Source of the DNA: Malacoraja senta
Taxonomy: Eukaryota
Length of the DNA: 64,000 nucleotides
NCBI GenBank assembly: GCA_038087875.1
Contig: CM075987.1
Location: 27,468,001 to 27,532,000 of the forward strand
Direction: 5' to 3'
A program made the translations under genes and the position numbers. Positions 1,291 through 62,430 of the stretch are shown here, one piece after another. The notes below the pieces were generated by a model. The model made no database searches, had not been told where the DNA came from, and saw only the letters and a program-made list of their open reading frames with translations. Each line of letters starts with the position of its first letter. Position 1 is the first letter of the stretch.

Positions 1291-1330
1291 CTCGAGGTCG
1301 AAGGGGCCATCTTAGGCAAGACACTAATAC

Positions 1331-1362
1331 GTCTGAAGAAGGGGCTCAACCCGAAACGTCAC
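1331..1362 (+). ncRNA. Minimal type-I hammerhead ribozyme motif
   Basis: gt-CTGAAGA-a-GGG(gctcaa)CCC-GAAA-C-GTC-ac: core, stem II, palindromic ACGT stem III, GUC triplet and 2-bp stem I. Confidence 0.7.
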
Positions 1363-1458
1363 CCGTTCCTTCTCTCCAGAGATGCTGCCTGTCCCGCTGA
1401 GTCACTCCAGCATTTTGTGTCTACTTTCGATTTAAACCAGCATCTGCAGTTCCTTCCT
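1333..1458 (+). mobile_element. Short Penelope-derived insertion starting at the hammerhead core, 12-bp TSD
   Basis: Direct repeat acactaatacgt at 1321-1332 and 1459-1470; the unit begins CTGAAGAAGGGG...CCCGAAACGTCACC. Confidence 0.85.
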
Positions 1459-1737
1459 ACACTAATACGTTAAGAATTTAATTGAATTCTTGGATGAGAT
1501 GAAGCTAGCCGTGGGGTTTGCTGCCCACCACAGGTCACGGACATATACAGTAACGCAGCTAATCCAACTGAACAGGTGGGGCCCCTCAAACGTAAAAAAA
1601 GAGCACCCAATTCTAGTTATCTTGCTGAGACCCAATAAATGTTGCAAGACAAAATAGCAACCAATGTCACCAAGGCTGATGGATGTAAACCCTGTATGCA
1701 CCATTTCCTGCCACCCAGTGCTATTCAAGTTAACTCA

Positions 1738-2100
1738 TCAGGTCATAAGTGATAGGAGCAGAATCAAGCCATTCAGCCTATCTAGTCTACTCCGCCATTC
1801 AATCATGACTGATCTATCTCACCCTCCTAACCCCATTCTCCTGCCTTCTCCCCATAACATCTGACACCTGTACTCTATCTCTGCCTTAAAAATATCCACT
1901 GACTTGGCCTCCATAGCTTTTTGTGGCAAAGAATTCCACAGGTTCACCACCCTCTGACTAAAGAAATTTCCCCTCATCTCCTAAAAGAACATCCTTTAAT
2001 TCTGAGGCTATGACTTCCAGTCTCTACCACTAGTGGAAACATGCTCTCCACATCCACTCTATCCAAGCCTTTCACTATTCCGTACGTTTCAATGAGGCCA
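1738..2100 (-). mobile_element. CR1-clade LINE 3' fragment (cctaattctgctcctatcacttatga-tail subfamily)
   Basis: Same sequence as 15870-16155 and 46327-46860; encodes the FF.QRVVNLWNSL C-terminus. Confidence 0.8.
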
Positions 2101-2435
2101 ATGAACTGAAGCCAAGTCAACTGGAGTTTACTGCCATTGGCACCAGTACGGAGGTACAGGGAACATGAAAATCATGCTTGCGTCAGCCTCCCAGAGACAT
2201 AGACTCGGACAGCACTCGCACATATAAATCATACATCAATTATTCATTAGTTATACACAAATTTCAAGTAAAAAAACTTTTTTAAAAACTTTCTTTTTTT
2301 GTGGTCAAATAGGATGGGCGAATGGGCCTAATGTAGACGGGGCATCTTGGTCGACATGGATGAGTTGGGTCTGTTTCTGTGTTGTGTGAAACATTTGGAC
2401 AGTTACAAGGTTATGATAACTCAAGTCAACTCAAT

Positions 2436-2783
2436 GTTTCTGATAGTCCCAACCTCAACTACCTCCTCTGGCAGCTCGTTCCATACACCCACCACCCTTG
2501 GGTGAAAAAAAGTTACCTCTCAGGTTCCTATTGAATCTTTCCCCCCTCACCTTAAACCTACTGTATGTCCTCTGGTTCTGCATTCCCCTACTCTGGGCCA
2601 GAGACTCTGTGCCTCTACCCGATCTATTCCTCTCATGATTTTATACACCTCTATAAGATCACCACCCCTCACCCTCCTGTCCTCCAGGGAATAGAGACCC
2701 AGCCTACTCAACCTCTCCCTATAGCTCTGGCCCACGAGTCCTGGCAACATCCTCGTAAATCTTCTCTGCACCTTTTCCAGCTG
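2436..2783 (-). mobile_element. CR1/HER1-type LINE 3' fragment
   Basis: ORF 2547-2771: QRRFTRMLPGL..SYRERLSRLGLYSLE.RR.RGDLIEVYKIMRGIDRV...RTRGH. Confidence 0.85.
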
Positions 2784-3125
2784 ACAAAGTACTGCCCGGT
2801 GACTAGGTCCTGCCTGGTTTAACTTTCCACTGACGTTACAGAGTAGGGTGTTGCTGACTTCTAAAGAAGTTAAAAATGAGGATTTACAGCAGACATAAAG
2901 GTTACATGTTAATTTATCTTAAAACAGGAACTGGGGACCTCATGTTGGAAAAGTTTGGAATTCTTTTGTGGTTCTGCAATTTTCCACTGACAAAAGTTGT
3001 GTTTTTGAATAACAGAAAAGTGCAGACGCTGGTAATGTGAAGAGGAGAATGCTGGAAATGTTCCAGACTTGTCCCCCTGGATATTTCCATCATTCCCAGT
3101 TTTACTTCTGACAGCTACGTGACAG

Positions 3126-3422
3126 GAGAGAGAGGCGAGGCGGGCAGCATCGGCAGAGCAGATGGAATCGATTTCCCCGCCCTTCACACAGGACCTGCGC
3201 AAGTCTCAGCCGACTGAAGTCAATGGAGCTACGTACCAGGAGCAGCTCCAACAGATGACAACATCACACGGCCGGCTTTACATCCTTCCCACGTTCAACT
3301 TCGCTCCTGACAATTATACGGTGATGCAAGGGGTTTCTCAGGGAACGCATTCACGCCAGCACTTTCCAAAATACCCAAAGCAGAAAAACAATTCCCTGCA
3401 CGGCGTCCTTCCAGAGAAATAA
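3126..3422 (+). CDS. Probable terminal coding exon of an unidentified host gene (EREARRAASAEQMESISPPF...GRLYILPTFNF...GVLPEK*)
   Basis: Non-repetitive, CpG-retaining 98-codon frame ending in TAA; preceded by a pyrimidine-rich tract and ...gtgacag acceptor (3101-3125) with an in-frame TGA just upstream; protein-like composition. Confidence 0.6.
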   Translation, partial: EREARRAASAEQMESISPPFTQDLRKSQPTEVNGATYQEQLQQMTTSHGRLYILPTFNFAPDNYTVMQGVSQGTHSRQHFPKYPKQKNNSLHGVLPEK

Positions 3423-3707
3423 CAGATCCTGCAACTCTCTGGTGGGGGAACATGGGCTGACGTGCAACTTGACACAGCAATACAGATGACCCATGTTGTA
3501 ATGGACCATGAGTGTCTACTATTGCCGATTGCCGATGACCCAGTATCACCAATCCTCAATGCCCAAGATCTGCTCTTCAGTAAAGTAGGTCTTGATTCAT
3601 CCTAACAGGGAATATTTGGATGGTCTCGTTGGAATGGACTCCTCCACATATTTCCCTATGAAGTCTATAGCACTGTGGCGTACTCGTTCAGGTCCATTGC
3701 CAAGTCT

Positions 3708-4010
3708 TAGTTTAGTTTAGTTCAGTTTAGAGATACAGCACAGAAACGGGCCCATTGGCCCACCGAGTCCACACCAACTAGCGATCCCCACACACTAACA
3801 CTACCCTACACACACGAGGGACATTTATACCAAGCTAATTAACCTACAAACCTGTACATCTTTGGAGTGTGGGAGGAAACTGAAGTTTTCGGAGAAAACC
3901 CACGCAGGTCACAGGGAGAACGTACAAACTCCGTACAGACAGCACCCGTAGTCAGGATCTAAGCCGGGTGTCTGGTGCTATGAGGCAGCAACTCTACCGC
4001 TGCGCCACCA
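3708..4010 (-). mobile_element. HE1-type SINE
   Basis: Full body with tRNA-like head and (ctaaa)n tail. Confidence 0.9.
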
Positions 4011-4229
4011 AGCCACCCACATCCTTCAACATTGCCCATTCTACCAACTCCAAGCAGTTTGAACTGCACTCCTCCTCTGCCCTTGACCAGCTCTATGCAA
4101 CCCTCACCACTGAAGATGTGCTCTTCACTCGCTGTTATTCCACCCCCCTCTTCCCTACTTACCCTTCCCCCCTCTCTTCCACCCATAACTCTCCCATCAC
4201 ATTTACATTCCACTCCTCCTCTTCTTGCT

Positions 4230-4463
4230 TTTTGACACCGTTTCATCTCTGGTGTTTGTCACTTACTCAACCCATCAGCTTCCAGGCTTTGCTCCACCAC
4301 CCCTCACTTTTCCAGCTCCCCCCCACAACAACTCCCTTCATCTGAAGAAGGGTCCCAACTGAAAATGTCGTCCGTCCAAATCCCTCCGCTGACTGACCGG
4401 CTGAGTTCCTCTAGAACTTTGTTTTTCGTTCAAGATTCCAGCATCTGCATTTTCTTGTGTCTC
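4230..4463 (+). mobile_element. Old Penelope-like pLTR fragment with degenerate hammerhead
   Basis: Pyrimidine-rich lead-in, tctgaagaagggtcccaactgaaaatgtc, then ...ccagcatctgcattttcttgtgtctc tail. Confidence 0.6.
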
Positions 4464-4979
4464 CAAAGCCTTTATCCTGTGAGGTTGGCGACCTAGACTT
4501 CAAACACATTATCCATTGGGTTGTGAAAGTTCCAGTGGAATCAGATGCAATCACAACTGCAGGCAATTCATTCCAAACTTTACCAACCCGCAGTCAGAAA
4601 ACATTCACCTCATTCCTCCTCGACTTCTTTTGCCAAACATTTCTGATCTCCGGCTTCTGGCTAGTGCCCACATACCGATAGAAATAATTCCTCTTTTCCC
4701 ACTTCATCAAAACCACATGTTGTTTAGATGCTGGCGTTGGTATCCTCACTGCCCTCTCTACGAAGACCAAGCTCAGACGCTCCAATTCCTCCACAGAACT
4801 AGTTCCTCAGTCTGGATACAATCCTGGTCACGATCCTTTGTATATTCCTTGTATTCATGTAAAAGATACACCCGTTCTAAAGTGTGGTGGCCAGAGTTGG
4901 ATAAGCATCTTGCAGCTTTCTGGCCAATGAACATTGGTGATGATGCGTGCCCATCATTTGCCATTATTATCACTTTATT

Positions 4980-5312
4980 TATTCTACACACTAGGGACAA
5001 TTCACAATTTTTACCAAAGCTGAATTAACCTACAAACCTGTATGTCCTTGGAGATAGATACAAAATGCTGGAGTAACTCAGCGGGACAGGCAGCATCTCT
5101 GGAGAGAATGAATGGGCGACGTTTCGAGTCGAGACAATTCATCAGACTTTGGAGCTTCTTTGGAGTGTGGGAGGAAACTGGAGCACCTGGAGGAAACCCA
5201 CGCGGTCACAGGGAGAACGTACAAACTCCATACAGACAGCACCCGTAGTCAGGATCGAACCCGGGTCTCTGCCACTGTGAGGCAGCAACTCTACCGCTGC
5301 GCCACCGTGCCA
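4980..5312 (-). mobile_element. HE1-type SINE interrupted by a Penelope/hammerhead unit (about 5054-5147)
   Basis: SINE body split at a c(c/t)ttggag duplication. Confidence 0.8.
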
Positions 5313-5399
5313 CTCTTATGTCTGGTGATTTTATGGACAGTAAACTTGTTAAATTAACCTGCAAGTAGTTGATGAACCCCAGTGACTAGCAGAGGTGGA

Positions 5400-5567
5400 G
5401 GTGACCGTGTCAATGTCTGCCAGGCCCTGAGCTCCATTTGGTGGGTGGTAGAGCGGGCACCCAGAGATGACATGGTTGGCTGTGTGTTGTTCTGGCTCCG
5501 CATTCACAGGCTGGGCTCTGGCGGAGCCCCCATCTCCACACGCTGGCATTGAAACGCCCAACTCCAG
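5400..5567 (-). mobile_element. Vingi/Ingi-like LINE C-terminal zinc-knuckle fragment
   Basis: With one frameshift reads TGVGRFNASVWRWGLRQSPACECGA/EQHTANHVISGCPLYHPPNGAQGLADID (C-x-C-x8-H-x4-C). Confidence 0.65.
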
Positions 5568-6057
5568 AGGGTGTGATTTGCTGCCTGGATGTCCAAGAAA
5601 TGAATGCTGGCTTGAAAGAAGCAGAACAATGTGTCTGATGTCACGATCGGCCCATGTAGCATGTTTTTGGCAGATACAGGATACACTGGCATGCAGGCTG
5701 CCCTTCCTGCCAACGGAACTCGCAGGGATAAACCTCAAACACCTGAGCATTTGTCGGGTTAAGATAGTGCTGAAGCCAGGCGACTCTTTGCAGTAAGTAC
5801 TACCTTTGGCAACTCTTTGCGTGCTGGTCCCAGAAGTAGATCTGCTATTCTTCATTACCCATCGCTCCACTGTTTAAAATCTTTCTTTCAACAGCAGCGT
5901 TCCGCCAACTATGCTCCTGTTAACCTCCTCTATAGAAGTTTGAAAACGCACACCTCAGATTCAGGGACAGTTTATTCCCAGCTGTTATCAGGCAACTGAA
6001 CCATCCTCTCACCAGCTAGAGAGCGGTCCTGAATTACCCTCTACCTCACCGGAGACC

Positions 6058-6508
6058 GTCCACAGTGTACAGATACGGGATAAAGGGAATAACATTCACT
6101 GCAAAATAAAGTCCAGGAAAGTCCTATTAAAGATGGTTCAAAGGTTTCCAATGAGGTAGATGGCATGTCAAAACTGCTCTCTAGTTGGTGGTAGGATGGT
6201 TCAGTTGCCTGACAACAGCTGGGAAGAAACTGTCCCTGAATCTGGAGGTGTGCGTTTTCACACTTCTGTGCCTTTTGCCTGATGGGAGAGGGGAGACGAG
6301 GGAGTGGCCGGGGTGCGACTGGTCCTTGATTATGCTGCTGGCCTTGCCGAGGCAGCGTGAAGTGTAGATGGAGCCAATGGAAGGGAGATTGGATTGCCTG
6401 ATGGTCTGGGCTGTGTCTACAACACTCTGCAACCTGTTGCGGTCTTGGATGGAGCTGTTCCCAAACCAATGGAGCTGTTCCCAAACCAATGGAGATGTTC
6501 CCAAACCA
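6058..6508 (-). mobile_element. Rex1/Babar LINE 3' fragment, with an inverted partial copy at 5930-6057
   Basis: ORF 6181-6516: WFGNSSIQDRNRLQ...SRFRDSFFPAVVRQLNHP; 20-bp unit tggagctgttcccaaaccaa occurs three times at the 5' junction. Confidence 0.85.
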
Positions 6509-7279
6509 ACAGCCAAGCTCCACGTTTCATGGTCTATTTTCTCTGCTAATTGTTTTTAAATGAAACCAAATGCAAAGCTTCCTGCAATATTTAATATGAA
6601 CACATTGTACTGCACCTAGATTAAAAGGAAATCTATGAGTGTACATGACAATTGACAAGGGACTCCCTAAAGTACACGCACAGTTAGTGAGTGTATTAGC
6701 ACTGAAAGGCTGAATGTAATTATTCCAATAAAACTGGTACACACAGTACTTGTACAACTAATACCTCCGGCCTTGAGTCAATCATTAAAGCCGCTGACAA
6801 ATAAGAACATAGACAGTACAGCACAGGAACGGGCCCTTCAGCCCACAATGTTAGAGTGATACAGCGTGGAAACAGGCCCTTCGGCCCAACTCGCCCACAC
6901 TGGTCAACAATGTCCCATCTACACTAGTCCCACCTGGCCGCGTTTGGTCCAGAACCCTCCAAACCCATCCCACCCATGTACCTGTCCAACTGTTTCTTAA
7001 ATGTTGGGATAGTCCCCTGCCTCAACTACCTCCTCTGGCAGCTTATTCCATACACCCACCACCCTCTGTGTGAAAAAGTTACCCCTTGGATTCCTGTGTC
7101 CTCTGGTCCTCGATTCCCCTACTCTGGGCAAGGTACACCAGTGTTTTCTCAGGTTGGGGTGTTGGGCAGGTGATGGGAAAGTATGTTCTGCTGCTGCAGG
7201 TCAGTCTGGAGCATGGCTGACCTGGCTGCAGTGTCTCAAGGAAGGCTTCAGTGGCAAAGTGACTGCAATGCTGCAAGCG

Positions 7280-7517
7280 AGATTAGAGAGGGATTAGAGG
7301 GCAGTCACGGTGACACAGCGGTAGAGTTGCTGCCTTACAGCAAAAATGCAGCGCCAGAGACCCGGGTTCGATCCAGACTACCGGTGCTGTCTGTACGGAG
7401 TTTGTACGTTCTCCCCGTGATCTGCGTGGGTTTTCTCCGAGATCTTCGGTTTCCTCCCACACTCCAAAGACGTACAGGTTTGTAGGTGAATTGGCTTGGT
7501 AAAAATGTAAAATTGTC
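7280..7517 (+). mobile_element. HE1-type SINE (variant with an insertion in the tRNA-like head)
   Basis: Box A, box B and V-domain body. Confidence 0.85.
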
Positions 7518-8400
7518 CAAGTTGGCGATATGCAGAGTACTGCCCTGCCGACTACAAAATTCAGAAGGTTCAGCAGGTTTACAGCAGGTACACAGAAACA
7601 TGGCAAAGTGGCCTGACACGCGAAACTGCAGTTGCTCGAGTCCTGAGCAGCTGGAGGACCTCAGTGGGTCAGGCAGCATCTCTGGAGGGAATGGACAGCC
7701 TACCTTTTGGGTCGAGACCCTTGTTCATGGGGTTGAGAGGGAAAGATAGATCAGCCATGATTGAATGGCAGAGTAGACTTGATGGGACAAATGGCCTAAT
7801 TCTGCTCCTAGAACTGATGAACTCAGAAGGATCTGAGTCTGAAGAAGGGTCCTGACCCGGAATGTTGCTTGTCCATTCCCTCCCCAGATGCTGTCACTGA
7901 TGGAGTACCACGGTGGCGCAGCGGTGGAGTTGTTGCCTCACAGCGCTAGAGACCCGGGTTCGATCCTGACTACAGGTGCTGTCTGTACGGAGTTTGAACG
8001 TTCTCCCCGTCACCACATGAGTTTTCTCCGTGTGCTCCGGATTCCCCCCCACATTCCAAAGACACGCAGGCTTGTAGATTAATTAGTCGCTAGTGGGTAG
8101 GATGAACCCGGTGGACCGAAGCACCTTTACTTTACTCTAAAACGTTGTGTTTAGTTACAAATAATGTTGTCCACAGTCCACCTGCCCTTTGCCGTGATAA
8201 AGCACAACACACTGGAGGAAACCCGCCTCCTGCAAGTTACTGTCAACTCTAAAACATAGTGGACTCCTTCAGCTGCACCAGTATACAGCGGCACAGGCAC
8301 ACGGGCAGAGTAAGGCCATTCGGCCCCAGCTACTCTGCCATTCAATACTGGCTGATCTATCATTCCCTCTCAACCCCAATCTCCTACCTTCTCCCCAATA

Positions 8401-9005
8401 AGTTCAGTTTAGTTGAGTTTATTGTCACGTGTACGGAGGTACAGTGAAAAGCTTTTGTTGCATGCTATCTAGTCAACACAAAGACAATACATGATTACAA
8501 TCGATCCATTTATAGTGAATAGATACATGTTAAGGGAATAACGTTTAGTGCAAGGTAAAGCCAGCAAAGTCCAATCAAGGATAGTCCAAGGGTCACCAAT
8601 GAAGTAGATAGTAGTTCAGGACTGCTCTCTGGTTGTGGTAGGATGGTTCAGTTGCCTGATAACTGCTGGGAAGAAACTGTCACTGAATCGGGAGGTGTGC
8701 GTTTTCACCCTTCTGTACCTTTTGCCCGATGGGAGAGGGGAGAAGATGGAGTGGCCGGGGTGCGACTCATCCTTGATGATGCTGCTGGCCTTGCCGAGGC
8801 AGCGTGAGGTGTAGATGGAGTCAATGGAAGGAAGGTTGGTTGTGTGATGGTCTGGGCTGCGTCCACAATTCGCTGCAATTTCTTGCGGTCCTGGATGGAG
8901 CTGTTCCCAAACCATGCTATGATGCATCCTGATAAAATGCTTTCAATGGTGCACCTGTACAAGTTGGTGAGAGTTGTAGGGGGACATGCCAAACTTCCTA
9001 AACCT
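8401..9005 (-). mobile_element. Rex1/Babar LINE 3' end with UTR and tail
   Basis: TLTNLYRCTIESILSGCIIAWFGNSS...SRFSDSFFPAVIRQLNHP, then UTR ending tcactgtacctccgtacacgtgacaataaa and an (aact/g)-repeat tail. Confidence 0.9.
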
Positions 9006-9030
9006 TTGAAACCTTCAAATTATATTTATA

Positions 9031-9329
9031 GTTTAGTTTAGAAATACAGTATGGTAACAGACCCACCGGGTCCGCGCTGACCAGCGATCCCCGCACACTA
9101 ACACTATCCTACACACACAAGGGACAATTTTTACATTTATACCAAGCCAATTAATCCACAAACCTACACGTCTTTGGAGAGTGGGAGGAAACCGAAGATC
9201 TCGGAGAAAACCCACGCGGTCACGGGGAGAACTTACAATCTCTGTACAGACAGCACGCGTAGTCGGGATTGAACCTGGGTGTCCGGCGTTGTGAGGCAGC
9301 AACTCTACCGCTACGCCACCGTGCCGCCC
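9031..9329 (-). mobile_element. HE1-type SINE
   Basis: Full-length match to other copies. Confidence 0.9.
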
Positions 9330-9927
9330 TATATGTGCAATTTAAAATTGGAAATGATTTAAAAATGACAGAAAAAGTCTCTCTGGCACTAACACCGAGT
9401 TGAGCTGGAGCCATCTTGCTGATTGGTATTGAAACTCTTTTTGAAATGGAAGGGAATGTTTCACTGTATATAAAAGTTAGCTCGCCGAACTGATGCCTCC
9501 TCACCTCAGTTATCCTCACAGGATTACACTTATGTAAAATACAGAACAGGAAATGCTGGACTCAGTCAGCAGGTTGAGCATGCCACACTTGTGGAAAGGG
9601 AAACAGAGTTAGCGTTTCAAGCCAATGACCTTTCATCAAAGCTTTTCCATTCCTACATTTCTCCGGTACAACTAACTGTGGAATGTCCCATGGCACTTCA
9701 AAGGAATGTTTTATTAAGTTAAATTTGACACCCCCGCCCACACACATAAAAAGATACCAGAGCATGTGTCTAAAAGCTTTGATAAAATGTTGAAAGGGCT
9801 GGTGGTGCAGAGAGGTTCAGGGAGAGAACTTGAGGACATGCTCACCTTTATGTATGACATGTCCCACAAGCTGGAAAGAGTGCAGCGATGACTGACAAGG
9901 ATGTGTCGGATGGAACTGTAGATACCC

Positions 9928-10129
9928 AAGATAGACACAAAGTGCTGTATTAACTCAGTGGGACAGGCAGCATCTGTGAAGCGAAGGAATGGGTGACTTC
10001 TTCAGACTCATTTTGTGTCTACATTCCGTAAATCTGAAGAAGGGTCTCGAGCTGAAAACGTCACCCATTCCTTCTCTCCAGAGATGCTGCCTGTCCCACT
10101 GAGTTAATACAGCACTTTGTGTCTATCTT
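9928..10129. mobile_element. Penelope-derived inverted pair with perfect 48-bp arms
   Basis: 9928-9975 is the exact reverse complement of 10082-10129; degenerate hammerhead at 10034-10063. Confidence 0.85.
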
Positions 10130-10131
10130 TC

Positions 10132-10587
10132 ATTAACGAGGATGTTGCCAGGACTTGAGGGCCTGAGCTACAGGGAGAGGTTGGGCAGGTTAGGACTCTA
10201 TTTCTTGGAGCAAAAAAGGATGAGAGGTGATCCTACAGAGGTGTATAAGATCAGAGTAGAAGAACATAGTCTTTTACCCAGAGTAGGGGAATCAAGAACC
10301 AGAGGACATAGGATTAAGGTGAGAGGGGAAAGATTTAATAGGAATCTGTGGGGCAACTTTTTCACATAGAGGGTGGTGGGTGTATGGAATGAGCTGCCAG
10401 AGGAGGTAGTTAAGGCTGGTACTATCCCAATGTTTAAGAAACAGTTAAACAGATACGTGGATTGGACAGGTTTGGAGGGATATGGACCAAACCTGGGTAG
10501 GTAGGAATAGTGTAGATGGGGCAGCTGAGTTGGCAAGGGTAAGTTGGGCCGAAGGGCCTGTTTCCGTGGTATATGTTCCTGTGACTG
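10132..10587 (+). mobile_element. CR1/HER1-type LINE 3' end
   Basis: MLPGLEGLSYRERLGRLGLY...RTRGH...FFT; 3' tail gggccgaagggcctgtttcc shared with HE1 SINEs. Confidence 0.85.
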
Positions 10588-10884
10588 TAAATCAAGTAAA
10601 AGAGCATAAGGTATTTAAAGTAAGGAGTTAGCGATTCAGAGGTGTTTTTAATCTAGAGGCTTGGTTATGCTGGTGGCCTTGCCGAGGCAGCATGGCTGAT
10701 TTCCAATTTCATTAATCCCATATCTCTGGATCCTTTTAATATCCGAAAAGGTTGTGATCTCTGTCTTGTATCCACACAGTGACTGAGCCACCAGAGCTCT
10801 CTGGGGTAGGGAATTGCAACGATTCATGTGGGTGAAGAATTCCGTTTGTATTCCCGTCTGAAAAAGCCAACTCTTTATTTGGAG

Positions 10885-10966
10885 ATAGACACAAAAATCT
10901 GGAGTAACTCAGCGGGACTGGAGAAAAGGAATGGGTGACCTTTCAGGTCGAGACCCTTCTTCAGAC
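10885..10966 (-). mobile_element. Short Penelope/hammerhead insertion, 10-bp TSD
   Basis: ttatttggag at 10875-10884 and 10967-10976. Confidence 0.8.
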
Positions 10967-11789
10967 TTATTTGGAGGCTGTGACTCTTGGTCCCAGACAC
11001 CCTAACCAATGGCATGCATCTACATTGTAAAACCTTTCAAGAAATGTGTACTTTTAAATGATACCACTTCTTATTATAAACTCAAGAATATAAGGAGTAC
11101 ATTATCATATCTATCAGGAATACAGGCCTTTCACAGCCTCACAACATTCCAAGGTGTTTTAGAGGCAACACTGTGATGCATTGCTACAACAGTAATGTTT
11201 ACTATTAGACTCATAGAGTGATACAGCGAGGTAACAGGCCCTTCGGCCCAACTTGCCCACACCGACCAACATGTCCCATCTACACTAGTCCCACCTGCCT
11301 GCGTTTGGCCCATATCCCTCCAAACCTGTCCTATCCATGTACCTGTCTAACTGTTCCTTAAACATTGCAACAGTCCCTGCCTCAACTACCTCCTCTGGCA
11401 GCTGATTCCATTCACCTCCCCACCCTCTGTGTGAAAAAGTTGCCCCTCAGATTCGTGTTAAATATCATTTCAACCTCAGGGTAACGCAGAGTGAAAATAC
11501 CTGAAAGAAATCAGCAGGAACATAGTTACAATCAGTTAGAATATAGTTAATCTAGAAAGCAGCATGAAGGGTGTTGTTGCCATGTTTTAAAAGGCATTGC
11601 ATTGCCTAATTGTGCAATTTAGCTTCATGTTCCCACTGCGGATTGGCAGAAGCCAGGCAATAAAACATTTTCACAGTTCTCATTGACTGATTCTAATGTG
11701 TGTACAAGGAGTTTGAAACATGTTTTCCTTCAGAATCTCTGGCCCGAGTCTCCAGACATGAAGCAGAAGCTGGGAGGATTACTTTGGTG

Positions 11790-11907
11790 TAGGAAGGAAC
11801 TACAGGTGCTGGTTTAAACCAAAGATAGACACAAAAAGCTGGAGTAGCTCAGCAGCATCTGTGGAGAGAAGGAATGGGTGACATTTCGGGTCGAGACCCT
11901 TCTTCAG
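11790..11907 (-). mobile_element. Short Penelope/hammerhead insertion, 9-bp TSD
   Basis: actttggtg at 11781-11789 and 11908-11916; minus strand CTGAAGAAGGGTCTCGACCCGAAATGTC. Confidence 0.8.
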
Positions 11908-42372: not shown

Positions 42373-42451
42373 TTAATTGTTGCGTTGTAGCGTGCACCAA
42401 GACACAGTGCACTTTGTTTTGCGTTATCATCCAGGCAAATTATACTGTATG

Positions 42452-49497: not shown

Positions 49498-49510
49498 TGC
49501 CATCTAGTGG
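49498..49510 (-). promoter_or_regulatory. CTCF core motif match
   Basis: CCACTAGATGGCA fits the CCASYAGRKGGCR consensus, in non-repeat sequence. Confidence 0.4.

Positions 49511-50983: not shown

Positions 50984-50986
<3 letters not shown>

Positions 50987-51034
<48 letters not shown>
50987..51034. repeat. (TA)n microsatellite at the L1 3' tail
   Basis: About 24 TA units. Confidence 0.95.
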
Positions 51035-51037
<3 letters not shown>

Positions 51038-53474: not shown

Positions 53475-54475
53475 TATTAAACCGTAAATTAAGTAAAGAT
53501 TTTTGATACGTATTTAGCATATTCCCATCTTCCATTGATCCAAAGATAATCAATTCTGTATTCGGTTCCAGTCTTCTATTAAATAATTTTGTAAAAATTT
53601 CAAAAATTTCATTCCAGAATTTATGAAGTTTTATACAGAAGACAAAAGAGTGTGTTATAGTGGCATTCTCAGCTAAGCATTTATCACATATTGGTGAGAT
53701 ATTTGGATAAAATTTATTCAATCTAGTTTTCGAGTAATATAGTCTATGTAAAATTTTAAAATTGGATTAAATTATGTTTTACATTAATCGAACATTTATG
53801 TATATATATCAGGTATTTTTCCCATGCTTCTTTCGCAATTTTTATCTGTAATTCTTGTTCCCAATCTACTCTAATTGCCTCTGTTGATGGAGGTTCTATA
53901 TTTAAAATAATATTATATAAGTATGATATTAAATTGCTTGAATCTGCTTTAATATTCATCACTTCATCTAGTGAATCTAAAGTTATATTTTGATATCCTT
54001 GTATGTGTTGTTTCAAATAATCTCTGATTTGAAGGTATTTAAAGTATTGATTATTTTTCAAGTTGTATTTTAATTGTAGTTGTTGAAATGATAAAAAAGA
54101 TTCCCATTTCATACAAATCTCCAAAGCTTTTAATTCCTACTATTAAGGTTTTAAATACTGGCTATTTGAAATAGATGTCAAAACAATTGACAAACAGGCT
54201 GTAATCAAAAGCCTGTGTATCAACTGATAATGACCTTGAGTAGGAAAGAACTGCAGATGCTGGTTTAAATCAAAGGTAGGCACAAAATGCTGGAGTAACT
54301 TAGCAGGACAGAAATGGAGAGAAATAATGGGTGACGTTTTGGGTCGAGACCCTTCTTCAGACTTGATCTTGATCCTGATTCTGTTTGAAATGTGTGATCA
54401 TTTAATGTTAAGTGTTACAGCTGATACTGCAAAGCAATGCACATCTCATGACTCAAGACTCGCTGACGTATTAAT

Positions 54476-55008
54476 TTTGCTCTCCTAATTTGAGGAAGGA
54501 CATTCTTGCTATTGAGGGAGTGCAGCGTAGGTTCACCAGGTTAATTCCCAGGATGACGGGACTGACATATGATGAAAGAATGGGTCGACTGGCCTTGTAT
54601 TCACTCAAATTTAGAAGAATGAGAGGGGATCTTATAAAAACATATAAAATTGTTAAGGGGTTGGACAGGCTAGATGCAGGAAAAATGTTCCCGATGTTTG
54701 GGGAGTCCAGAATCAGGGGTCACAGTTTAAGAGTAAGAGGTAGGCCATTTAGGACTGAGATGAGGAAAAACTTTTTCACCCAGAGAGTTGTGAATCTGTG
54801 GAATTCTCTGTCACTGAAGGCAGTGGAAGCAAATTCACTGAATGTTTTCAAGAGAGAGTTAGATTTAGCTCTTGGGGCTAAAGGAATCAAGGGATATGGG
54901 GAGAAAGCAGGAACGGGGTACTGATTTTGGATGATCAGCCATGACCTTATTGAATGGCGGTGCTGGCTCAAAGGGTCGAATGGCTTACTCCTGCACCTAT
55001 TTTCTATG
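54476..55008 (+). mobile_element. CR1-clade (HER1-like) LINE 3' end
   Basis: ORF 54490-54924: RKDILAIEGVQRRFTRLIP...GIKGYGEKAGTGY*. Confidence 0.92.
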
Positions 55009-55769
55009 TTAATGTTCCCTGGCCTTTGCCTTCTTTTGTCCCTTAAAGGTAACATACTTTTCAACCCTTTTATAATTTGCATCGTAGAGATCTAAAATAG
55101 TCACCTGTCATTTTCATCATTAGAGCTGACCGAGTTAATCCAAAGAGCAAAAAAATTGAACATGCTGGAAATTTGAAATAACACAAAAAGCATGAGAGAT
55201 ACTCAATAAATCGTGCAGTATATGTGGAAAGACAAATGGAGTTTTCATTGGCGGTGGTGACCTTAAATAGGTTGGGGACATTGTGGTAAGTGGGGGTCAT
55301 TGGGGAGTCACGACATCAAGGATTGGGAAATCACGGGAAACAACATCAGTGATTGGGATTTGTGGAAGGGACAATGAAATTTGGAGATGGGACAAGATAT
55401 TGGGGATTGAATTGGACTAATTATTTTGGCAATGAAGAAAATGGTGTGAAGGGTGAATAGCAAGTAAAGTCCTTAAAGAACGTTGACACCCCAGACTCAC
55501 TGGTCATGAAGCAGGTATAGCTACAGTAGCTGAAAAATACATTTGCATAGAGTGCTACCTTATAACAAAAGAGGAGCAAGCCACAGAACGACCTCCTCCC
55601 CCTGCCCAAGCCAGACAATACAGTTAAAGGAGAGTGAACAGGTTTTATTTACATAGAGTGGTGGGTGCCTGGAAAGTGCTGCCAGGGGTGGTGGTAGAGG
55701 CAGACACAATAGTGGTGTTTCAGAGGCTTTTAGATATTACATGGATATGCAGGGAATGAAAGGATATGG

Positions 55770-58115
55770 TTCTTGGTCCTCCAAAATATTCCAAATGGAA
55801 TATAAACTGGAGGTGGTGGAGGGAGGACTTAAGGCCAGAAAGGGTTTCTGGGAAGAAAGAGCTACCTTAATTTAGTTGCATCTGGTTGGGTAACTATAGT
55901 AGGGTGAAGACTATTCCATGCTTTAATTGTGTGGGGGAAGAATGAATTGCTGTACACATCTGTCTTGGTAGCTGGTATCTCAAATTGGATCGAATGCCCT
56001 CGTCTGCTCCTAATTGGTTTAGGCTTGGTGTACGTTTTGTAATCTATGTTGAGCTGACCATTTAACATTTTGTAAAAACAGGTCAAATGGTCTGTCTTGG
56101 AGAGGGTTCCACCCCAGTGAATTCAGAAGTTTGGTAACACTCGCTTCTCTCTCATAGGTATTAGTAACAAATCGAGCTGCCTGTCTTTGGACACATTCGA
56201 TGGAAGAAATGTTTTTATTTGTGTATGGTGCATGCTGCAACTGCGTAGTCCAAATGAGGTCTAACGAGGGTGAAGTATAGCTTCTCCTTGACAGAAGTTG
56301 AACAATGTTAAAAGTTGCGTCTCAGAAAATTTAGGACACCTGTTGCTTTCACCGTTGCATGATGGGTCTGACCATTCCAACGTAGATCGTTCTGCAATTT
56401 GATGCCAAGATACTTGGTTTGTTTGGATTCTTCAAGGGTGGCACCAAGTATATTGTAAGATGTTTTGCATGGATTCCTCTTTCTGGTGACACGCATGGTT
56501 CACATTTGGAAGGGTAGAACTGCATGCCCCATTGTTGTGAACCACTCAACCATAAGTATCGAGATCCTTTTGGAGAGCATCTTCATCATCAGCTGACTTA
56601 ATTGGACGGTACAGCAAACAATCATCAGCGAATAGTCTGGTCGTACTTGTGACTTTTTCATGGATGTTATTTATGTAAAGCAAAAACAGATGTGGGCCAA
56701 GTACTGTGCCCTGAGGTATACCACTCAACACTGGACACCAATCAGAGCTCTTTCCGTTCACACACACGGCACTGAAGACATTTTGTCAGGAAACTGGAAA
56801 TCCATCGTTTCGTGTTGGAACGAATACCATAGAAGTCAAGCTTCCGAGCAGTCTCTGGTGTGGGATGACATCAAATGCTTTAGAAAAGTCCAGCACTACT
56901 AAATCCGTGATGACGTTACTATCAAGGTGCTTGGCCAGGTCATTTGTCGTCAGGATAAGCTGAGACTCACATGATCTATGCCTCCTAAATGCATGTTGGT
57001 TGTCAGCAAGAATGTTATGTTTGCTCACATGTCTAATCAGATTACTATCAATTAAATGCTCCAGCAGTTTGCAGCAAATACTTGTTAATGAAACAGGGCG
57101 ATAATTCGCCGGGTTGGTGGTTGAACTCTTCTTAAAGAGAGGAGTAATGTTAGCCTTCCTCCAATCCAGCGGAACATCACCCGAGTCAAGCGACTGTTGG
57201 AAAATGAACTGCAAAACTGGAGCCAGTTCTTCGGCCGCGATCTTGAGGGGTTGATTTGATCTGATCTGGTCCATTTGCTTTTGTTGTATTGATGTTAAGC
57301 AATAACTTCTTTGACACCTTCAACCTCAATTTTAATAGCAGGCATATCAGCATACAGGCTGGGCAGTAGATCTGGAAATGATGAAGGCTCCATATCTTCC
57401 CGGGTGAAAAACGTGTTGAAATTGGTTTCCAAGAGCTTCTGCTATCGCCTGGTCCTCAGTGATCAGACAGTTGTTCACTTAAAACATCTGGACACCAGTG
57501 TTGTCTGTCCGTCTGGATTTCACATATCTCCAAAAAGCCTTGGCTTGCTCTCCCCCAAGAATAGAAGAAACATGTTGTCCCTGAGCATTCCTAATAGCAC
57601 GATCGACTTGCTTTCACACTCTAGTAAAATTGTCCCAGTCGGGTTTTGTACCCCTTTTTGTGGCACGGATATAAAACTTCTCTTTCTTACTGCAGAGACG
57701 TTTCCGTTTTGCCGAAAACCAAGGAGGACGCATACGGCCCTTAATGAGTTTTTGAGGAACATGATTTGTACCAATATTATTTAAAGAGTCTCTCAGCCAC
57801 ACCCAGTTGTCTTTTACGGATCTTTTACGGATGAGAAGTGGAGAGCGTGACTAGGCGTTAATTTTGGAGATGTTTGATCCAAGATCTAAAGAGGCTCCGT
57901 TTTCATGTCAGGTGGTCGGTAAAAGTTTCCGATCTTTAACGACTGACCCTGGAGTGTAGCTTGACACCAGATTTGCTCAGAGTCGCTGTCTAAATCAGTT
58001 CTGTCAAAACAAGGAATGGTATTGTTAACTCCGATGAAGACACCGCCTCCATGTGAGTTTCTGTCCTTTCTAAAAATTTGGAGGTGAGGAGGGAAAATCC
58101 CAGCAGATTGATTGA
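55770..58115 (-). mobile_element. Degraded CR1-group LINE of a distinct, invertebrate-like lineage (APE endonuclease plus RT)
   Basis: FRKDRNSHGGGVFIGV...IGNFYRPPD; NPANYRPVSLTSICCKLLEH...DFSKAFD; SGIPQGTVLGPHLFLLYIN...RLFADDCLLYR; SFFPHTIKAWNSL; 3' palindrome atattcca-tt-tggaatat. Confidence 0.88.
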
Positions 58116-58459
58116 TGGGTTCACATATATACAACAGAAATTAACTTGGCATCAAGTTCACCGTGATTGAAGGGCCTGTTCCCATGCTGCCACTGTTCTC
58201 TGTTATCTTCTAAGCTTTTCTCAGCAGTAGCGGAGTTTATCTTGGCCCACTCACATAATCCTGGCACGTTGCAGGATCTCACTGATCCTCTAGGCCACCA
58301 AGTTCAACCTTCAGGTTCCAACCCCGATACGTTTGGTACAATGGGAAATATAAGTGGGTATGCTGGGCAGTGGACCCAACTCAGAACATTCTGCGACCAT
58401 ATCATCTTTGCTACTGTTTTGATTTAGTTTTGTTTGTATTATTTGCCAAATATGTCATT

Positions 58460-59108
58460 GACTCATACAGCATTGAAACAGGCTCTTTGGCCCAATTTGC
58501 CCACACTGACCAACATGTTCCATCTACACTAGTCCCACCTGCCGCCGTTTGGCCCATATCCCTCTAAACCTGTCCTATCCATGTACCTATCTGTATGCTT
58601 CCTAAACGTTGCAATAATACCTCGACTACCTCCTTCCAGCAGCTTGTTCCATACACCGTGGAAAAGTTACCCCTCAGGTTCTTATTAATTCTTCACCACT
58701 TCACCTTAAACCTAGGTCATCTGGTTCTCAATTCCCCTACTCTGGGCAAGAGACTGTGCGTCTACCCGATCTATTACTCTCATGATTTTGTACACGTCTA
58801 TTAGATCACCCTTCATGCTCCTGCGCTCCCAGCAGTCCTAGCCTGCTCAACTCTCCCTAAAGCTTAGCCCCTCGAGTCCTGACAACATCCTCATAAATCT
58901 TCTCTGCACTCTTTCCAGCTTGGCAGCATCTTTCCTATAACATGATGCCCAGAACTGAACGCAATACTCTAAATGCACACTTACCAACGTCTTACACAAC
59001 TGCAACATGACCTCCCAACTTCTATACTCAATACTGTGACTGATGAGGCCAATGTGCGGAAGCCTATTTGGCCACCTTATCTACCTGCGACTCCACCTTC
59101 AAGGAACC
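58460..59108 (-). mobile_element. CR1/HER1-type LINE 3' portion
   Basis: Homologous to 12831-13350 and extends further 5'. Confidence 0.85.
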
Positions 59109-59117
59109 TCGATCCCT

Positions 59118-60456
59118 ATACATAGATACATAGAAAATAGGTGCAGGAGTAGGCCATTCGGCCCTTCGAGCCGGCACCGCCATTCAATATGATCATGGCT
59201 GATCATCCAACTCAGTATCCCGTACCTGCCTTCTCTCCATACCCCCTGATCCCTTTAGCCACAAGGGCCACATCTAACTCCCTCTTAAATATAGCCAATG
59301 AACTGCCTCAACTACCCTCTGTGGCAGAGAGTTCCAGAGATTCACCACTCTCTGTGTGAAAAAGTTTTTCCTCATCTCGGTCTTAATAATAATAATAATA
59401 ATGGATTTATTTACGGGCGCCTTATACCGAGGTCTCAAGGACACCATACAGAGATTTATAGAAAACATATAATCAGAATTTAAAAAAAATAGGTTATAAA
59501 GACCAATACATAAATCAGGGACGAAATTCCTTCCAAAAAACACAAAAAAAAGAAAATCAGAAGCACAATTTGAGGAGAGAGCAGCGGCAATTTAACGCCA
59601 GCGTCCACTCTCCCTCCGACCGCCATCTTGAACACAGACTAACAAATACAATTACAAACAATTACATACAAAAATCATCCCCCCACAATGATTTCCATTG
59701 TGGGGGAAGGCACAATGTCCAGTCCCCAGCCCCAGTTCACCCAAAAAAAGTCAGGCCAAATGAAGCCCCCGCTATTGCCTCTACGGAGGCCCGATGATCC
59801 TGGCCGTTCTCGCCGGGTGATGTAGCCCCGGCGTCGGGAGAGTCCTCCAGCAGCTGGGCCACCTGGAACGGCCGCATCCCTCACCGGAGGCCGCAACTAC
59901 GGCTGGAACGGCCGATTTCCCGCAGGTGTCCGCAGCACCTGAAGCCGACAAGGCCGCGCCGATTTGGAGCTCAAGGCTCCCGGTGTTGGAGTCGGCGCCG
60001 CCGCCCGCGAATGGTCGCTCCAGTCCCGGAGGTGTTGAGCTCGGCGGTCCAGCTCACCGGAGCTCCAGCGCGTCGGTCCAGCGCGGCGACCCAGGCAAGG
60101 CATCGCCCGCTCCGCTGCACAGTAGCGCTCCAGCGCCGTGCCGCCACCGAAGCTGAGGGTGCTGTGCGGTTCCCGCCAGGAAACGCCGCTCCACGCCCGC
60201 TGGTAGGCCGCGAGGACGGGTCGAATGGGCAGCCGGAGAGAAGGCTGCCTCACCGACCAGGTAGGGACCAGGAAGTGGTTTCCCCTTGATCCCCCCACAT
60301 TAAAGGATTTCCCCCTTATCCTTAAGCTGTGACCCCTTGTCCTGGACTTCCCCAACATCGGGAAACAATCTTCCTGCATCTAGCCTGTCCAACCCCATAA
60401 GAATTTTGTAACGTTTCTATAAGATCCCCTCTCAATCTCCTAAATTCTAGCGAGTA
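59118..60456 (-). mobile_element. CR1-clade LINE 3' end, split by a GC-rich insertion
   Basis: 59118-59386 and 60300-60456 rejoin as ...ctcggtcttaaaggatttcccc... Confidence 0.8.
59387..60299 (-). mobile_element. GC/CpG-rich non-coding retroposon (about 0.9 kb) with L2-like tail and (TTA)n end
   Basis: Minus-strand 3' end gtgtccttgagacctcggtataaggcgcccgtaaataaatcc(att)n; 11-bp hairpin at 59680-59706; TTAA at both junctions. Confidence 0.7.
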
Positions 60457-61884
60457 TTTATGCTCTACAACACTCCCCAGAGCCCTACCATTTCACTGTG
60501 TAGGTCATGCCCATGCTGGGCTTCCCAAAATGCAGCACCTCACATTTCACTGTATAATATTCCACCAACCATTCCTCAGTCCACCTATCCAAACAATCAA
60601 GATCCTGCTGCAAGTTTTGACAACCAAAGTTGTCTGCCAATTCAAATCCTGAAACATGGATTGGTTAATCCCTTAATTTACTGAGATATTCTGCTAAATG
60701 AGGGAATGAACACATTGACATAAGCACACTGCTATAGAGCAACTTCCACACGTTTAATGTCAGTATCTATATCAGATCTGATATTTCATTGGGCACATCT
60801 TCAGCAAATCTCAAGCAAATATTTTATGCATTGATAGATAGCTACGTTAAATCATTGCCATTTATCATCAGATGCCAAGTGTAGTCATTTATATATGACG
60901 GAGGAAAAATATGTTAAAGTTTCCATCGTTAATTCAGTGAGCTATATCCACTAATGTACACGCAGGGCCCTTTATCATTTATCAGTTTGACCCATGCACA
61001 TCTCACACTGTTCCTGGAGACGGCTGGTTGAGCCATGCTGACTTGTGGTCTTGGTGGAATGAAGAAAGCAATGAGCTTACATTTATTCTTTGAGTCAGCT
61101 CAGCTTGAATAGCAATGCTCTCTTCACTTTTTAATCCACACAAGACACTGCATTTTCTGCTTCTTCAGTTCTCAACTCATACCTGAAATTGACCACATTC
61201 TTGTCAAGTGAGGATGGACATCTTGTGTTGAAACTGGAACTAAACCCTTTCAAAAAGTGCAATTAAGAGATTCACTTTGCGCCTAATGGAGATTAAAAGG
61301 TTATAATAGAAGATACTGACTTGCATTGGCATGCTAAGCACATTCCATGAAGTAAAGAATGCAAAATTCATGCTGAGTTCTTCAATATAATTGCACAAGA
61401 ATTTCAAATGTACCCAGTGTGATCCTCTTTTCCCTTGCACAGCTCAAGTGTCAGCTGTGGCTCAACTGGGAGCACTTGGAAGGTTGATCTACTTCTGAAA
61501 CTCAACAACTTGAGCTCCTGGAACCTGTTGAACTGGTTCGGCTGTAGTATTGAGGCTGGTACCGAAAATATATAATCTTGATGGGCCGAATGGCCTAATT
61601 CTGCACCTATCACTTATGAAGTTCATCAAATTATCCATGTCCTTAGGCATACTTTAATTAAATAAAGCCTCAGCAAATTTTCATAATACAAAGTCAGACT
61701 TTATGAGATCATGCTTTTATATCTGTGCAAATGATTCGTCTGTACGCTAAGCCACAACAGATTCCTTGTATGAAAGCATCCATCATCTTGAGTGAGAGAA
61801 GTATGATGAGCAGAAAGTGGTGAATAGATATCACTGACTCTGTGGAATGTTAACCAATACCTAACAGGCAAAAATAATTAACAA

Positions 61885-62206
61885 AAGATAGAAACAAAAT
61901 GCTGGAGTAACTCGCTGATGGCAGCATCTCTGGAGAGAAGGGATGTATCGGGTCGAGACCTTCTTCAGAGTCGGGGGAGAGGAGTCTAGAGAAATGGAAG
62001 GGTAAGGTGTGAAAAGGACATATCAAAGCAGATGGTAATCAAGGAAATGTAGAATAGTTCATTGTTGGCTGAGGGGAAGGTGACAATGAGGCATACAAAC
62101 AGTAAAATTAATCAGGACAGTGAAACTAGTCGGAGAACTAGGGTGGGGGAGGGAAGGAGAGGGAAAGCAAGGGTTACTTGAAGTTAGAGAAATCAACATT
62201 CATACA
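61885..62206 (-). mobile_element. Penelope-like element 3' end: ORF stop, UTR/pLTR, degenerate hammerhead, tail
   Basis: Minus strand MNVDFSNFK*, about 200 nt pyrimidine-rich UTR, ctctgaagaaggtctcgacccga, then ccttctctccagagatgctgcc tail. Confidence 0.8.
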
Positions 62207-62332
62207 TGTTCATAAGTAACAACAGAAGTAATTTATTTACTGACCTGACTGACCAATGGATTTGTTTTACTTTCCTTATTAAAAGTTACAAAGTTATTCT
62301 TTTTTAAATTATGAAGACCTAATTTTAAGTTA

Positions 62333-62430
62333 GATAGACACAAAATCTGAGTAACTCAGCGGGACAGGCAGCATCTTTGGAGAGAAGGAATGGGTAACGT
62401 TTCGGGTCGAGGCCCTTCTACAGACTGATT
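62333..62430 (-). mobile_element. Short Penelope/hammerhead insertion
   Basis: Unit consensus; aatt(t)taagtta repeated on both sides. Confidence 0.75.

What the first reader, a model, noticed from the sequence alone, without database searches (positions are those of the whole stretch)
1321..62430. Abundant hammerhead-ribozyme-bearing mini-retroelements derived from a Penelope-like pLTR
Seen: dozens of copies of an 80-170 nt unit whose conserved end is gt-CTGAAGA-A-[stem II]-GAAA-C-GT(C/T)-(a/g)c (for example 1331-1362 +, 33636-33670 -, 43766-43800 +, 47900-47933 -). Two subfamilies covary. Stem II is GGGTC-tc-GACCC or GGGT-TTCG-GCCC; the cleavage triplet is GUC or GUU; stem I is U-A/G-C or U.G/G-C. 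Established: Penelope-like elements carry minimal type-I hammerheads with a palindromic stem III (here ACGT/AACGTT) that are thought to cleave as dimers, and an extra A after A9 is tolerated in natural hammerheads. Inference: this genome holds a very high-copy, SINE-sized, ribozyme-carrying non-autonomous family mobilised by a Neptune-type PLE.
Basis: partly seen in the sequence, partly recalled or inferred. Interest (0 to 1): 0.8.

Follow-up and report, generated by a model that had tools for sequence, protein, structure and literature searches.

The report
Truncated Penelope retroelement ends with hammerheads
The scattered 95–135-base repeats are the end pieces of a very abundant, young Penelope-like jumping gene that carries a known small hammerhead ribozyme motif, and they are likely short by-products of that gene's copying rather than a separate mini-element, with one unexplained feature: many begin within a few bases of the motif's front edge.

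Summary
The repeat is real: 51 segments in the window (0 in shuffles), 40,065 exact core matches in the genome, and roughly 0.8–1 million segments by extrapolation. It is not a separate mini-element. The unit is the pLTR end of autonomous Neptune-type Penelope-like elements (PLEs). Full-length copies have a 1238-aa RT–GIY-YIG ORF between two units, and every hammerhead subfamily also occurs behind a GIY-YIG C-terminus. Short copies have 9–16 nt target-site duplications, the two PLE 3' ends (core and tail), frequent head-to-head inversions, and the same variants and tail use as long copies. The motif fits the published minimal hammerhead. Subfamily changes are one-sided wobbles, not covariation; only 2 of 23 window copies are intact; cleavage is untested. 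One feature is unexplained: 5' ends pile up at the hammerhead's front edge, not at its cut site. Young-family counts fall 25,690 → 18,811 → 8,628 → 8,498 across it. The likeliest cause is that reverse transcription, started internally, runs off the RNA's 5' end there; a stall is nearly as likely. The scan reported the same arrangement, including the step, in other genomes.

The parts
447..62429 (.). 51 dispersed segments of the PLE pLTR end unit (hammerhead plus about 65 nt, plus an optional tail of about 36 nt), 7.4% of the window
33572..33672 (-). Short family-B copy with intact hammerhead: stem I 5' strand 33668-33667, C3 at 33666, predicted cut between 33639 and 33638. Ends at the core 3' site, 13-nt target-site duplication (TSD).
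45389..45521 (-). Short family-A copy with intact hammerhead and tail, 13-nt TSD
1331..1462 (+). Short family-A copy with tail, 12-nt TSD, stem II broken by two changes
47800..47932 (-). Short family-A copy with tail; starts 1 nt before C3, stem I not formable
43655..43900 (+). Longer family-A copy running about 115 nt into the pyrimidine-rich 3' UTR of the PLE; palindrome broken
61885..62184 (-). Longer family-A copy with about 220 nt of upstream PLE sequence
20713..20853 (+). Family-A copy with about 55 nt of upstream PLE 3' UTR
49816..49963 (+). Family-C copy with about 21 nt of upstream C-rich UTR and tail
10880..10967 (-). Short copy, 10-nt TSD
11787..11910 (-). Short copy with tail, 9-nt TSD
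12192..12321 (+). Short copy with tail, 11-nt TSD
37170..37303 (+). Short copy with tail, 13-nt TSD set 12 nt before C3
43260..43446 (.). Head-to-head inverted pair (family B) inside one 16-nt TSD
36801..36976 (.). Head-to-head inverted pair inside one 10-nt TSD
884..1045 (.). Head-to-head inverted pair
9928..10129 (.). Head-to-head inverted pair (sub-threshold Rfam MIR2118 hit)
13670..13865 (.). Head-to-head inverted pair of an older subfamily
23108..23293 (.). Head-to-head inverted pair (sub-threshold Rfam mir-641 hit)
26995..27203 (.). Head-to-head inverted pair with a further reiterated piece
28080..28343 (.). Head-to-head inverted pair of an older subfamily, both arms with tail
40043..40183 (.). 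Head-to-head inverted pair

Best explanation
The units are the terminal pLTR segment of autonomous Neptune-type Penelope-like retrotransposons, and the short copies are likely 5'-truncated by-products of those elements' own target-primed reverse transcription, not an independent mini-element. Shown: the full element is unit – 33 nt – 1238-aa ORF (RT, CX4CX2C linker, GIY-YIG) – 114-nt pyrimidine-rich UTR – unit, period 3,996 nt, often in partial tandems. Short copies are whole insertions with TSDs, end at +90–96 or +126–131 (C3 = 0), and often begin at −7 to +1. Taken from the Anolis PLE (PMC11167929): the endonuclease nicks both strands, the RT starts internally at two sites that define core end and tail, and uncut RNA is the template. 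That explains the two 3' ends, the head-to-head pairs and the lack of copies starting at the cut site (+28). Inferred, about 45% within this explanation: the 5' step marks the RNA's 5' end. Transcription would start at the initiator-like TCAGT at −5 to −1 of the upstream pLTR, so an RT that starts in that upstream copy runs off after 95–135 nt, while one that starts in the downstream copy makes the long insertions. About 35%: a stall at the same place. The hammerhead is predicted to work, if at all, only in master transcripts, as a dimer or with protein help; inserted copies decay neutrally.
For: Parent: 22,982 first-look candidates, 150 of 150 scored at 99–100% identity with no stop inside. 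Structure of 16 loci chosen for long or tandem ORFs. RVT_1 and GIY-YIG hits, both just under Pfam's cut-off. 1,004 homologs at E ≤ 1e-30. A, B, C and D hammerheads each follow a GIY-YIG C-terminus by about 90–340 nt. TSDs in 16 of 49 non-inverted copies starting at −8 to +2, versus 3 of 239 shuffled pairings; in 16 of 40 head-to-head pairings versus 3 of 311 (two of the 16 look like element sequence). 76 of 187 segments are in inverted pairs. No allele shared by 15% or more of short copies is absent from long copies in B (27 short, 24 long) or A (104, 26); 8 of 27 short B copies are identical to a long one. Tail use is 7 of 20 long and 6 of 21 short B copies, p = 0.74. 5' step: 82 of 191 segments start at −7 to +1, 7–12 per nt against 0.3–0.4 at −40 to −10 and 1.4–2.3 at +2 to +27. 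Family-B 30-mers starting at +10, 0, −10, −20 number 25,690, 18,811, 8,628, 8,498. 15,023 of 40,065 exact cores lose homology at −2, −3 or −4. Contigs of public runs show loose ends at −3/−2, +93 and +128. Starts at +27 to +29 are not enriched (4 of 191). Ribozyme CpGs decay like a body CpG: 71 and 71 versus 79 of 130 intact.
Against: Short masters identical to the autonomous pLTR would leave the same traces and cannot be excluded. Family C shows two short-only alleles (3 and 4 of 13). Family A is 80% short (104 of 130) against 53% for B (27 of 51). Against the run-off sub-model: no excess of G (copied cap) before AGT (31 G, 40 A, 29 T of 100 listed, counted by eye). The step is spread over about 20 nt, with 27% already lost between +10 and 0. 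In Drosophila Penelope the start lies about 120 nt upstream, before an intron that ends at helix I. TSDs were found in only a third of copies, most of them old.
Confidence: 0.8

Rival explanations
1. Same origin, but the 5' step is a reverse-transcriptase stall on a continuous RNA. The cause would be a hairpin between the pyrimidine tract and the purine-rich front of the hammerhead, the ORF protein bound there, or splicing factors on the acceptor-like (Y)nCAG; the stalled cDNA is then joined to the target by 1–4 nt of microhomology.
For: The predicted minimum-energy fold of a B copy with 40 nt of upstream sequence pairs −27..−19 with +2..+10, where the first 27% of copies are lost. The upstream sequence is a long pyrimidine tract ending in CAG in all families. 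TSDs overlap the first bases of the element. Several copies reiterate the first ~10 nt of the hammerhead, as after a pause and re-annealing (L093, L107, L120; L004). No cap-G excess before AGT.
Against: The largest loss (54%) lies between 0 and −10, beyond the 3' arm of the predicted hairpin. Almost nothing is lost from −10 to −20, inside the pyrimidine tract. The fold is a prediction only.
Confidence: 0.35
2. One reading: short, inserted copies are themselves transcribed and re-mobilised in trans, as a SINE-like non-autonomous family.
For: Both ends are fixed and TSDs are present. A short copy keeps an initiator-like TCAGT and both RT start sites. pLTR sequence alone can mobilise foreign DNA in trans in rotifers (PMC3846280). 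The short share is larger in the older family A.
Against: No short-specific alleles in A or B, the same tail ratio as long copies, no shared foreign 5' flank among 86 copies, no head other than PLE sequence, and neutral CpG decay of the ribozyme. Every subfamily has an ORF-linked form. In the Anolis element the RNA must include the first 172 nt of the ORF; the equivalent need here is unknown.
Confidence: 0.15
3. The units are non-LTR retrozymes: tandem hammerhead repeats that self-cleave, circularise and re-insert as monomers.
For: Retrozymes are reported to derive from PLE pLTRs, also in one chondrichthyan (10.64898/2026.07.22.740005). Contigs of one run from another organism join +127..+137 back to −6/−5.
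Against: No tandem array of the unit in the window. Only 5 same-strand neighbour pairs within 400 nt among 219 copies; the three inspected are separate insertions or partial tandems with UTR between. Copy ends do not lie at the cut site.
Confidence: 0.04

Closest known systems
Endonuclease-positive Penelope-like elements, Neptune clade, and their 5'-truncated insertions (architecture as in PMC8557442, PMC3846280)
   Same: Single ORF with RT, CX2-5CXXC linker and C-terminal GIY-YIG; partial tandems forming pLTRs; inverted 5'-truncated copies; optional 30–40 nt tail; short TSDs; palindromes at inverted junctions.
   Different: Extreme abundance (about 5% of the sampled DNA), a 1238-aa ORF with a long proline-rich N-terminal part (homologs mostly 700–950 aa), and a sharp 5' step at the hammerhead that I did not find described.
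Minimal hammerheads (min-HHR) of metazoan PLEs (Cervera and De la Peña 2014, PMC4209133)
   Same: Type I, all core bases, extra base between 9 and 10.1, G10.1–C11.1, palindromic 15.2–16.2, mostly found as single motifs that the authors ascribe to truncated PLEs.
   Different: Stem II is 4 bp (7–8 in Schistosoma) and stem I is 2 bp (as in Drosophila virilis). Family B has a GUU triplet. Copy number is far above the about 4,000 and 9,000 reported for coelacanth and Xenopus, though counted differently.
Poseidon element of Anolis carolinensis (Frangieh et al. 2024, PMC11167929)
   Same: Hammerhead at the pLTR–ORF junction; two 3' ends downstream of it that match internal RT start sites; copies keep the uncut hammerhead.
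   Different: Other clade; there the ORF starts inside the hammerhead, here the ATG is at +163. A 5' step is not mentioned in the parts read, and supplementary figure 2, which may bear on it, is a picture I could not read.
Non-LTR retrozymes (10.64898/2026.07.22.740005)
   Same: pLTR-derived, with a type I hammerhead, no coding capacity.
   Different: Retrozymes are tandem arrays; these copies are single or head-to-head, and bounded by RT start sites and TSDs.

Membership tests
EN+ Penelope-like element | Single ORF with RT and C-terminal GIY-YIG | tested here: met
   L069:3721-7434, 1238 aa, YIDD motif; RVT_1 E 6.6e-6 and GIY-YIG E 0.0015, both under the curated cut-off; 1,004 homologs
EN+ Penelope-like element | Partial tandems forming pLTRs | tested here: met
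   L066, L068, L071, L072, L074, L076, L080; period 3,996 nt
EN+ Penelope-like element | Inverted 5'-truncated copy, optional 30–40 nt tail, TSD | tested here: met
   76 of 187 segments inverted; 3' ends at +90–96 and +126–131; TSDs 9–16 nt
Neptune clade | CX2-5CXXC linker before the endonuclease (shared with Nematis, PMC8557442) | tested here: met
   C-x4-C-x2-C upstream of the GIY-YIG motif
Neptune clade | RT phylogeny placing it with Neptune rather than Nematis | not tested
   No named reference sequences at hand
Minimal PLE hammerhead | Core bases, extra base after A9, G10.1–C11.1, palindromic 15.2–16.2 | tested here: met
   Column counts over 219 copies; intact in 38 of 51 B, 10 of 22 C, 27 of 130 A, 0 of 16 D copies
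Minimal PLE hammerhead | Compensatory changes in the stems | tested here: not met
   Only one-sided U-A to U·G changes between families
Minimal PLE hammerhead | Excess conservation of the core between subfamilies | tested here: inconclusive
   0 of 11 versus 18 of 62 columns differ, p = 0.055
Minimal PLE hammerhead | Self-cleavage as dimer or with protein | not testable with these tools
   Folding only: the hammerhead fold costs 6–11 kcal/mol over the best fold; the palindrome duplex is −3.1 to −3.5 kcal/mol
SINE-like non-autonomous family | Own master lineages with variants absent from the autonomous partner | tested here: not met
   None in A or B; two weak ones in C; sample of 219 copies only
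SINE-like non-autonomous family | Head unrelated to the partner's end (tRNA, 5S, 7SL or other) | tested here: not met
   The whole unit aligns to the pLTR of ORF-linked copies; no such Rfam hit
SINE-like non-autonomous family | Own transcript used as template | not testable with these tools
   No raw-read RNA run available
Non-LTR retrozyme | Tandem of two or more complete hammerhead units | tested here: not met
   window and about 0.9 Mb of loci only, not genome-wide

The most novel reading that the evidence does not exclude
The short copies are integrated run-off ('strong-stop'-like) cDNAs. The PLE transcript begins at an initiator directly in front of the hammerhead, and the RT, starting internally in the upstream pLTR, reaches the RNA's 5' end after 95–135 nt. 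Hundreds of thousands of insertions would then record the transcription start and both RT start sites of a vertebrate Neptune element, and internal initiation plus terminal redundancy would be a built-in source of SINE-sized repeats with no non-autonomous master.
Probability: 0.35. Interest if true: 0.6.

Novelty: new member of a known kind. Interest (0 to 1): 0.33.

Why it matters
For annotation: about 5% of the sampled DNA consists of these end pieces, which are easily mislabelled as a SINE, a MITE or a miRNA hairpin. For mechanism: the PLE transposition cycle and the role of its hammerhead are open questions. This genome holds a young family with many intact 1238-aa ORFs and a natural record of both ends of its products. 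That record agrees with the in vitro result that uncut RNA is copied from internal start sites. The sharp 5' step gives a precise test: a capped RNA end or an RT stall at −7 to −1.

Tried and rejected
Rfam scan: no hammerhead model matched; I read this as a poor fit of the curated models to minimal variants, not as evidence against the motif. Spliced retrocopies: because the upstream sequence looks like a 3' splice site and Drosophila Penelope has an intron ending there, I searched for one predicted exon junction (donor at the ORF's stop codon) and got 0 matches. This tests one donor only, but 86 copies with non-PLE flanks share no upstream sequence either. Cap-derived G: not enriched before AGT; 45 G, 35 T, 20 C of 100 before GT (by eye), which reiterated hammerhead ends or microhomology could also give, so it is not used. 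Expression: no RNA holder listed. The runs laid were contigs, three only guessed to be RNA, so starts, ends and levels cannot be read; no GT..AG joint into the CAG was among the 15 joints shown, 76 were not shown. The between-family column count (53 of 82) was inflated by register shifts and is replaced (18 of 62). The flank-sharing list (101 pairs; output cut) consisted, in the rows shown, of inverted arms or PLE UTR and was redone with these removed. Tail use does not separate the run-off and stall models. Literature searches for this family or for the 5' step found no description. The paper on dimer cleavage by PLE hammerheads (Lünse et al. 2017, recalled) is not held. Dfam and Repbase could not be searched, so the family may already be catalogued there.
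Full report
Observation. The motif is present at the four cited places. Three window copies used as seeds find 51 segments covering 4,759 nt, with 0 hits in 5 shuffles. The exact 30-nt core occurs 40,065 times in the 1.94-Gb genome. In 33 stretches not chosen for the repeat (the window, its two neighbours and 30 round-number positions; 384 kb) there are 191 segments covering 19,877 nt, 139 of them in the 320 kb outside the window. This extrapolates to about 0.8–1 million segments and 5% of the DNA. Positions below are counted from C3 of the hammerhead (0). That the host is a cartilaginous fish is my recollection of the repeat and was not tested.

What the unit is. Fetching DNA around exact matches showed a PLE ORF ending 115 nt before a unit, with an inverted truncated copy in front (L004). 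A search with its RT gave 22,982 candidates; the 150 scored were 99–100% identical with no stop inside, and several lay in open frames of 1,200–1,300 aa. Sixteen loci with long or tandem ORFs were fetched. The full element is unit – ORF – 114-nt pyrimidine-rich UTR – unit, with a period of 3,996 nt. The ATG lies at +163 and the protein has 1238 aa with YIDD, a C-x4-C-x2-C linker and GIY-YIG. The linker marks Neptune and Nematis elements (PMC8557442, passages); the two were not separated by a tree. Among 16 other ORF ends, A-, B-, C- and D-type hammerheads each follow a GIY-YIG C-terminus (11 with a clean motif match). The unit is therefore both the 3' end of the element and, in partial tandems, its 5' UTR. 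The window itself holds no ORF-bearing copy, but several copies run 20–220 nt into the UTR.

Short copies are whole insertions. TSDs of 9–16 nt flank 16 of 49 non-inverted copies that start at −8 to +2 (control 3 of 239) and 7 of 62 others (control 4 of 306). 76 of 187 segments lie in head-to-head pairs, and 16 of 40 such pairings sit inside one TSD (control 3 of 311). The 3' ends fall at +90–96 or +126–131, about 36 nt apart. This is the optional PLE tail, which in the Anolis element is the distance between two internal RT start sites (PMC11167929, parts 1–2 of 4). That protein nicks and extends both strands and uses uncut RNA, which fits the inverted pairs and the lack of starts at the cut site (4 of 191 at +27 to +29).

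The ribozyme motif. It matches the published minimal hammerhead: core, extra base after A9, G10.1–C11.1 and palindromic 15.2–16.2 (PMC4209133, parts 1–2 of 4). Over 219 copies anchored on the body downstream of the motif, family majorities differ in the motif only at the loop, one stem II wobble, H17 and one stem I wobble. The core differs at 0 of 11 columns and the body at 18 of 62 (p = 0.055). There is no two-sided change between families. Inserted copies decay: intact motifs in 38 of 51 B, 10 of 22 C, 27 of 130 A and 0 of 16 D copies, and in 2 of 23 window copies. The two ribozyme CpGs are lost as often as a body CpG. Core divergence among A copies is 0.042 against 0.081 in the non-CpG body, but the body figure includes subfamily variation and the alignment favours matches at C3. 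The hammerhead fold is not the predicted best fold of a monomer (6–11 kcal/mol worse), and the palindrome can pair between molecules. Cleavage is untested. Published PLE hammerheads cleave weakly as dimers or need the ORF protein.

Independent family or by-product. In B (27 short, 24 long) and A (104, 26) no allele carried by 15% or more of short copies is missing from long ones, and 8 of 27 short B copies equal a long copy. C (13, 9) shows two short-only alleles, one a CpG change. Tail use is the same, 7 of 20 long and 6 of 21 short. No two of 86 copies with non-PLE flanks share the flank next to the junction. There is no tandem array of the unit in the window. The 2014 paper already ascribes single motifs to truncated PLEs, and the 2026 preprint notes that most PLE insertions keep a single terminal repeat (Discussion). 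A SINE-like lineage identical to its parent cannot be excluded with 219 copies, but nothing here requires one.

The unexplained part. 82 of 191 segments start at −7 to +1. Genome-wide, family-B 30-mers starting at +10, 0, −10 and −20 number 25,690, 18,811, 8,628 and 8,498: two thirds end within 20 nt, then the curve is flat. The windows differ in CpG content, which favours the upstream ones. Of 40,065 exact cores, 3,709, 6,584 and 4,730 lose homology at −2, −3 and −4. Contigs from public runs coded as four organisms show loose ends at −3/−2, +93 and +128. Two readings remain. In the first, the RNA begins there: TCAGTCT fits the initiator consensus (recalled), and an RT starting in the upstream pLTR would run off. 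In the second, the RT stalls, at a predicted hairpin of −27..−19 with +2..+10 or at protein on the acceptor-like pyrimidine tract. In Drosophila Penelope an intron ends at this position and the start lies 121 nt upstream. I found no spliced retrocopies and no clear cap signature. I put run-off at about 45% and stall at about 35%. Searches for a published description found none. Supplementary figure 2 of PMC11167929 may bear on it but is a picture.

Earlier notes of this scan, looked up after my reading was fixed, report the same arrangement in other genomes, one of them including the 5' step; a look-up by sequence gave nothing. They are not counted as evidence.

Verdict. A real, very abundant repeat and a correctly recognised hammerhead motif, but of a kind described in 2014, in the insertion architecture typical of PLEs. 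The proposed non-autonomous family is not supported. The sharp 5' step and the young intact parent make a PLE mechanism question testable. Interest 0.33.

Noticed in passing
L001:2904-3122, L004:1852-2147, L013:817-1004: A 66-nt minisatellite made of +20 to +86 of the unit (second half of the hammerhead plus body), 98–99% alike between loci. It lacks the CUGA box, so it is not a retrozyme, but it appears to spread as its own small family.
   Followed up: no
L058:7161-7347, L060:4020-4202: Head-to-head pairs whose arms both start at +10 and overlap by 15 nt, that is, joined through the near-palindrome of stem II, inside 15–16 nt TSDs.
   Followed up: partly
L109:1800-2200 (+), L122:7800-8250 (-): Head-to-tail partial tandems of two different subfamilies with 70–100 nt of UTR between them, suggesting a template switch between different RNAs or insertion into a pLTR.
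   Followed up: partly
run X1 laid on L072:3240-4300 (table 5c): High-depth contig joints from +127..+137 back to −6/−5 with 14–27 other letters between: possible tandem arrays of the short unit in another organism.
   Followed up: no
L069:3721-7434: The PLE protein has about 520 N-terminal residues that include a long proline-rich stretch with 26-residue repeats varying in number between copies (open frames 1,224, 1,250, 1,302 aa); homologs are mostly 700–950 aa.
   Followed up: no
window 16712-17281, 22133-22528, 54475-54924, 56786-57319, 53756-54136, 41004-41519, 6181-6555 and others: Many decayed fragments of other LINE-type retrotransposons (CR1/L2-like and L1-like by recalled resemblance of the translations).
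   Followed up: no
L019:2372-3130 (-): Open frame with collagen-like repeats followed by a C1q-like domain (recalled resemblance), probably a host exon.
   Followed up: no
window 49566-49815: A different repeat (several copies in window and loci, with a 27-nt tandem duplication at 49726-49785) lies directly upstream of the family-C copy; similar sequence follows units in L004 and L092.
   Followed up: no
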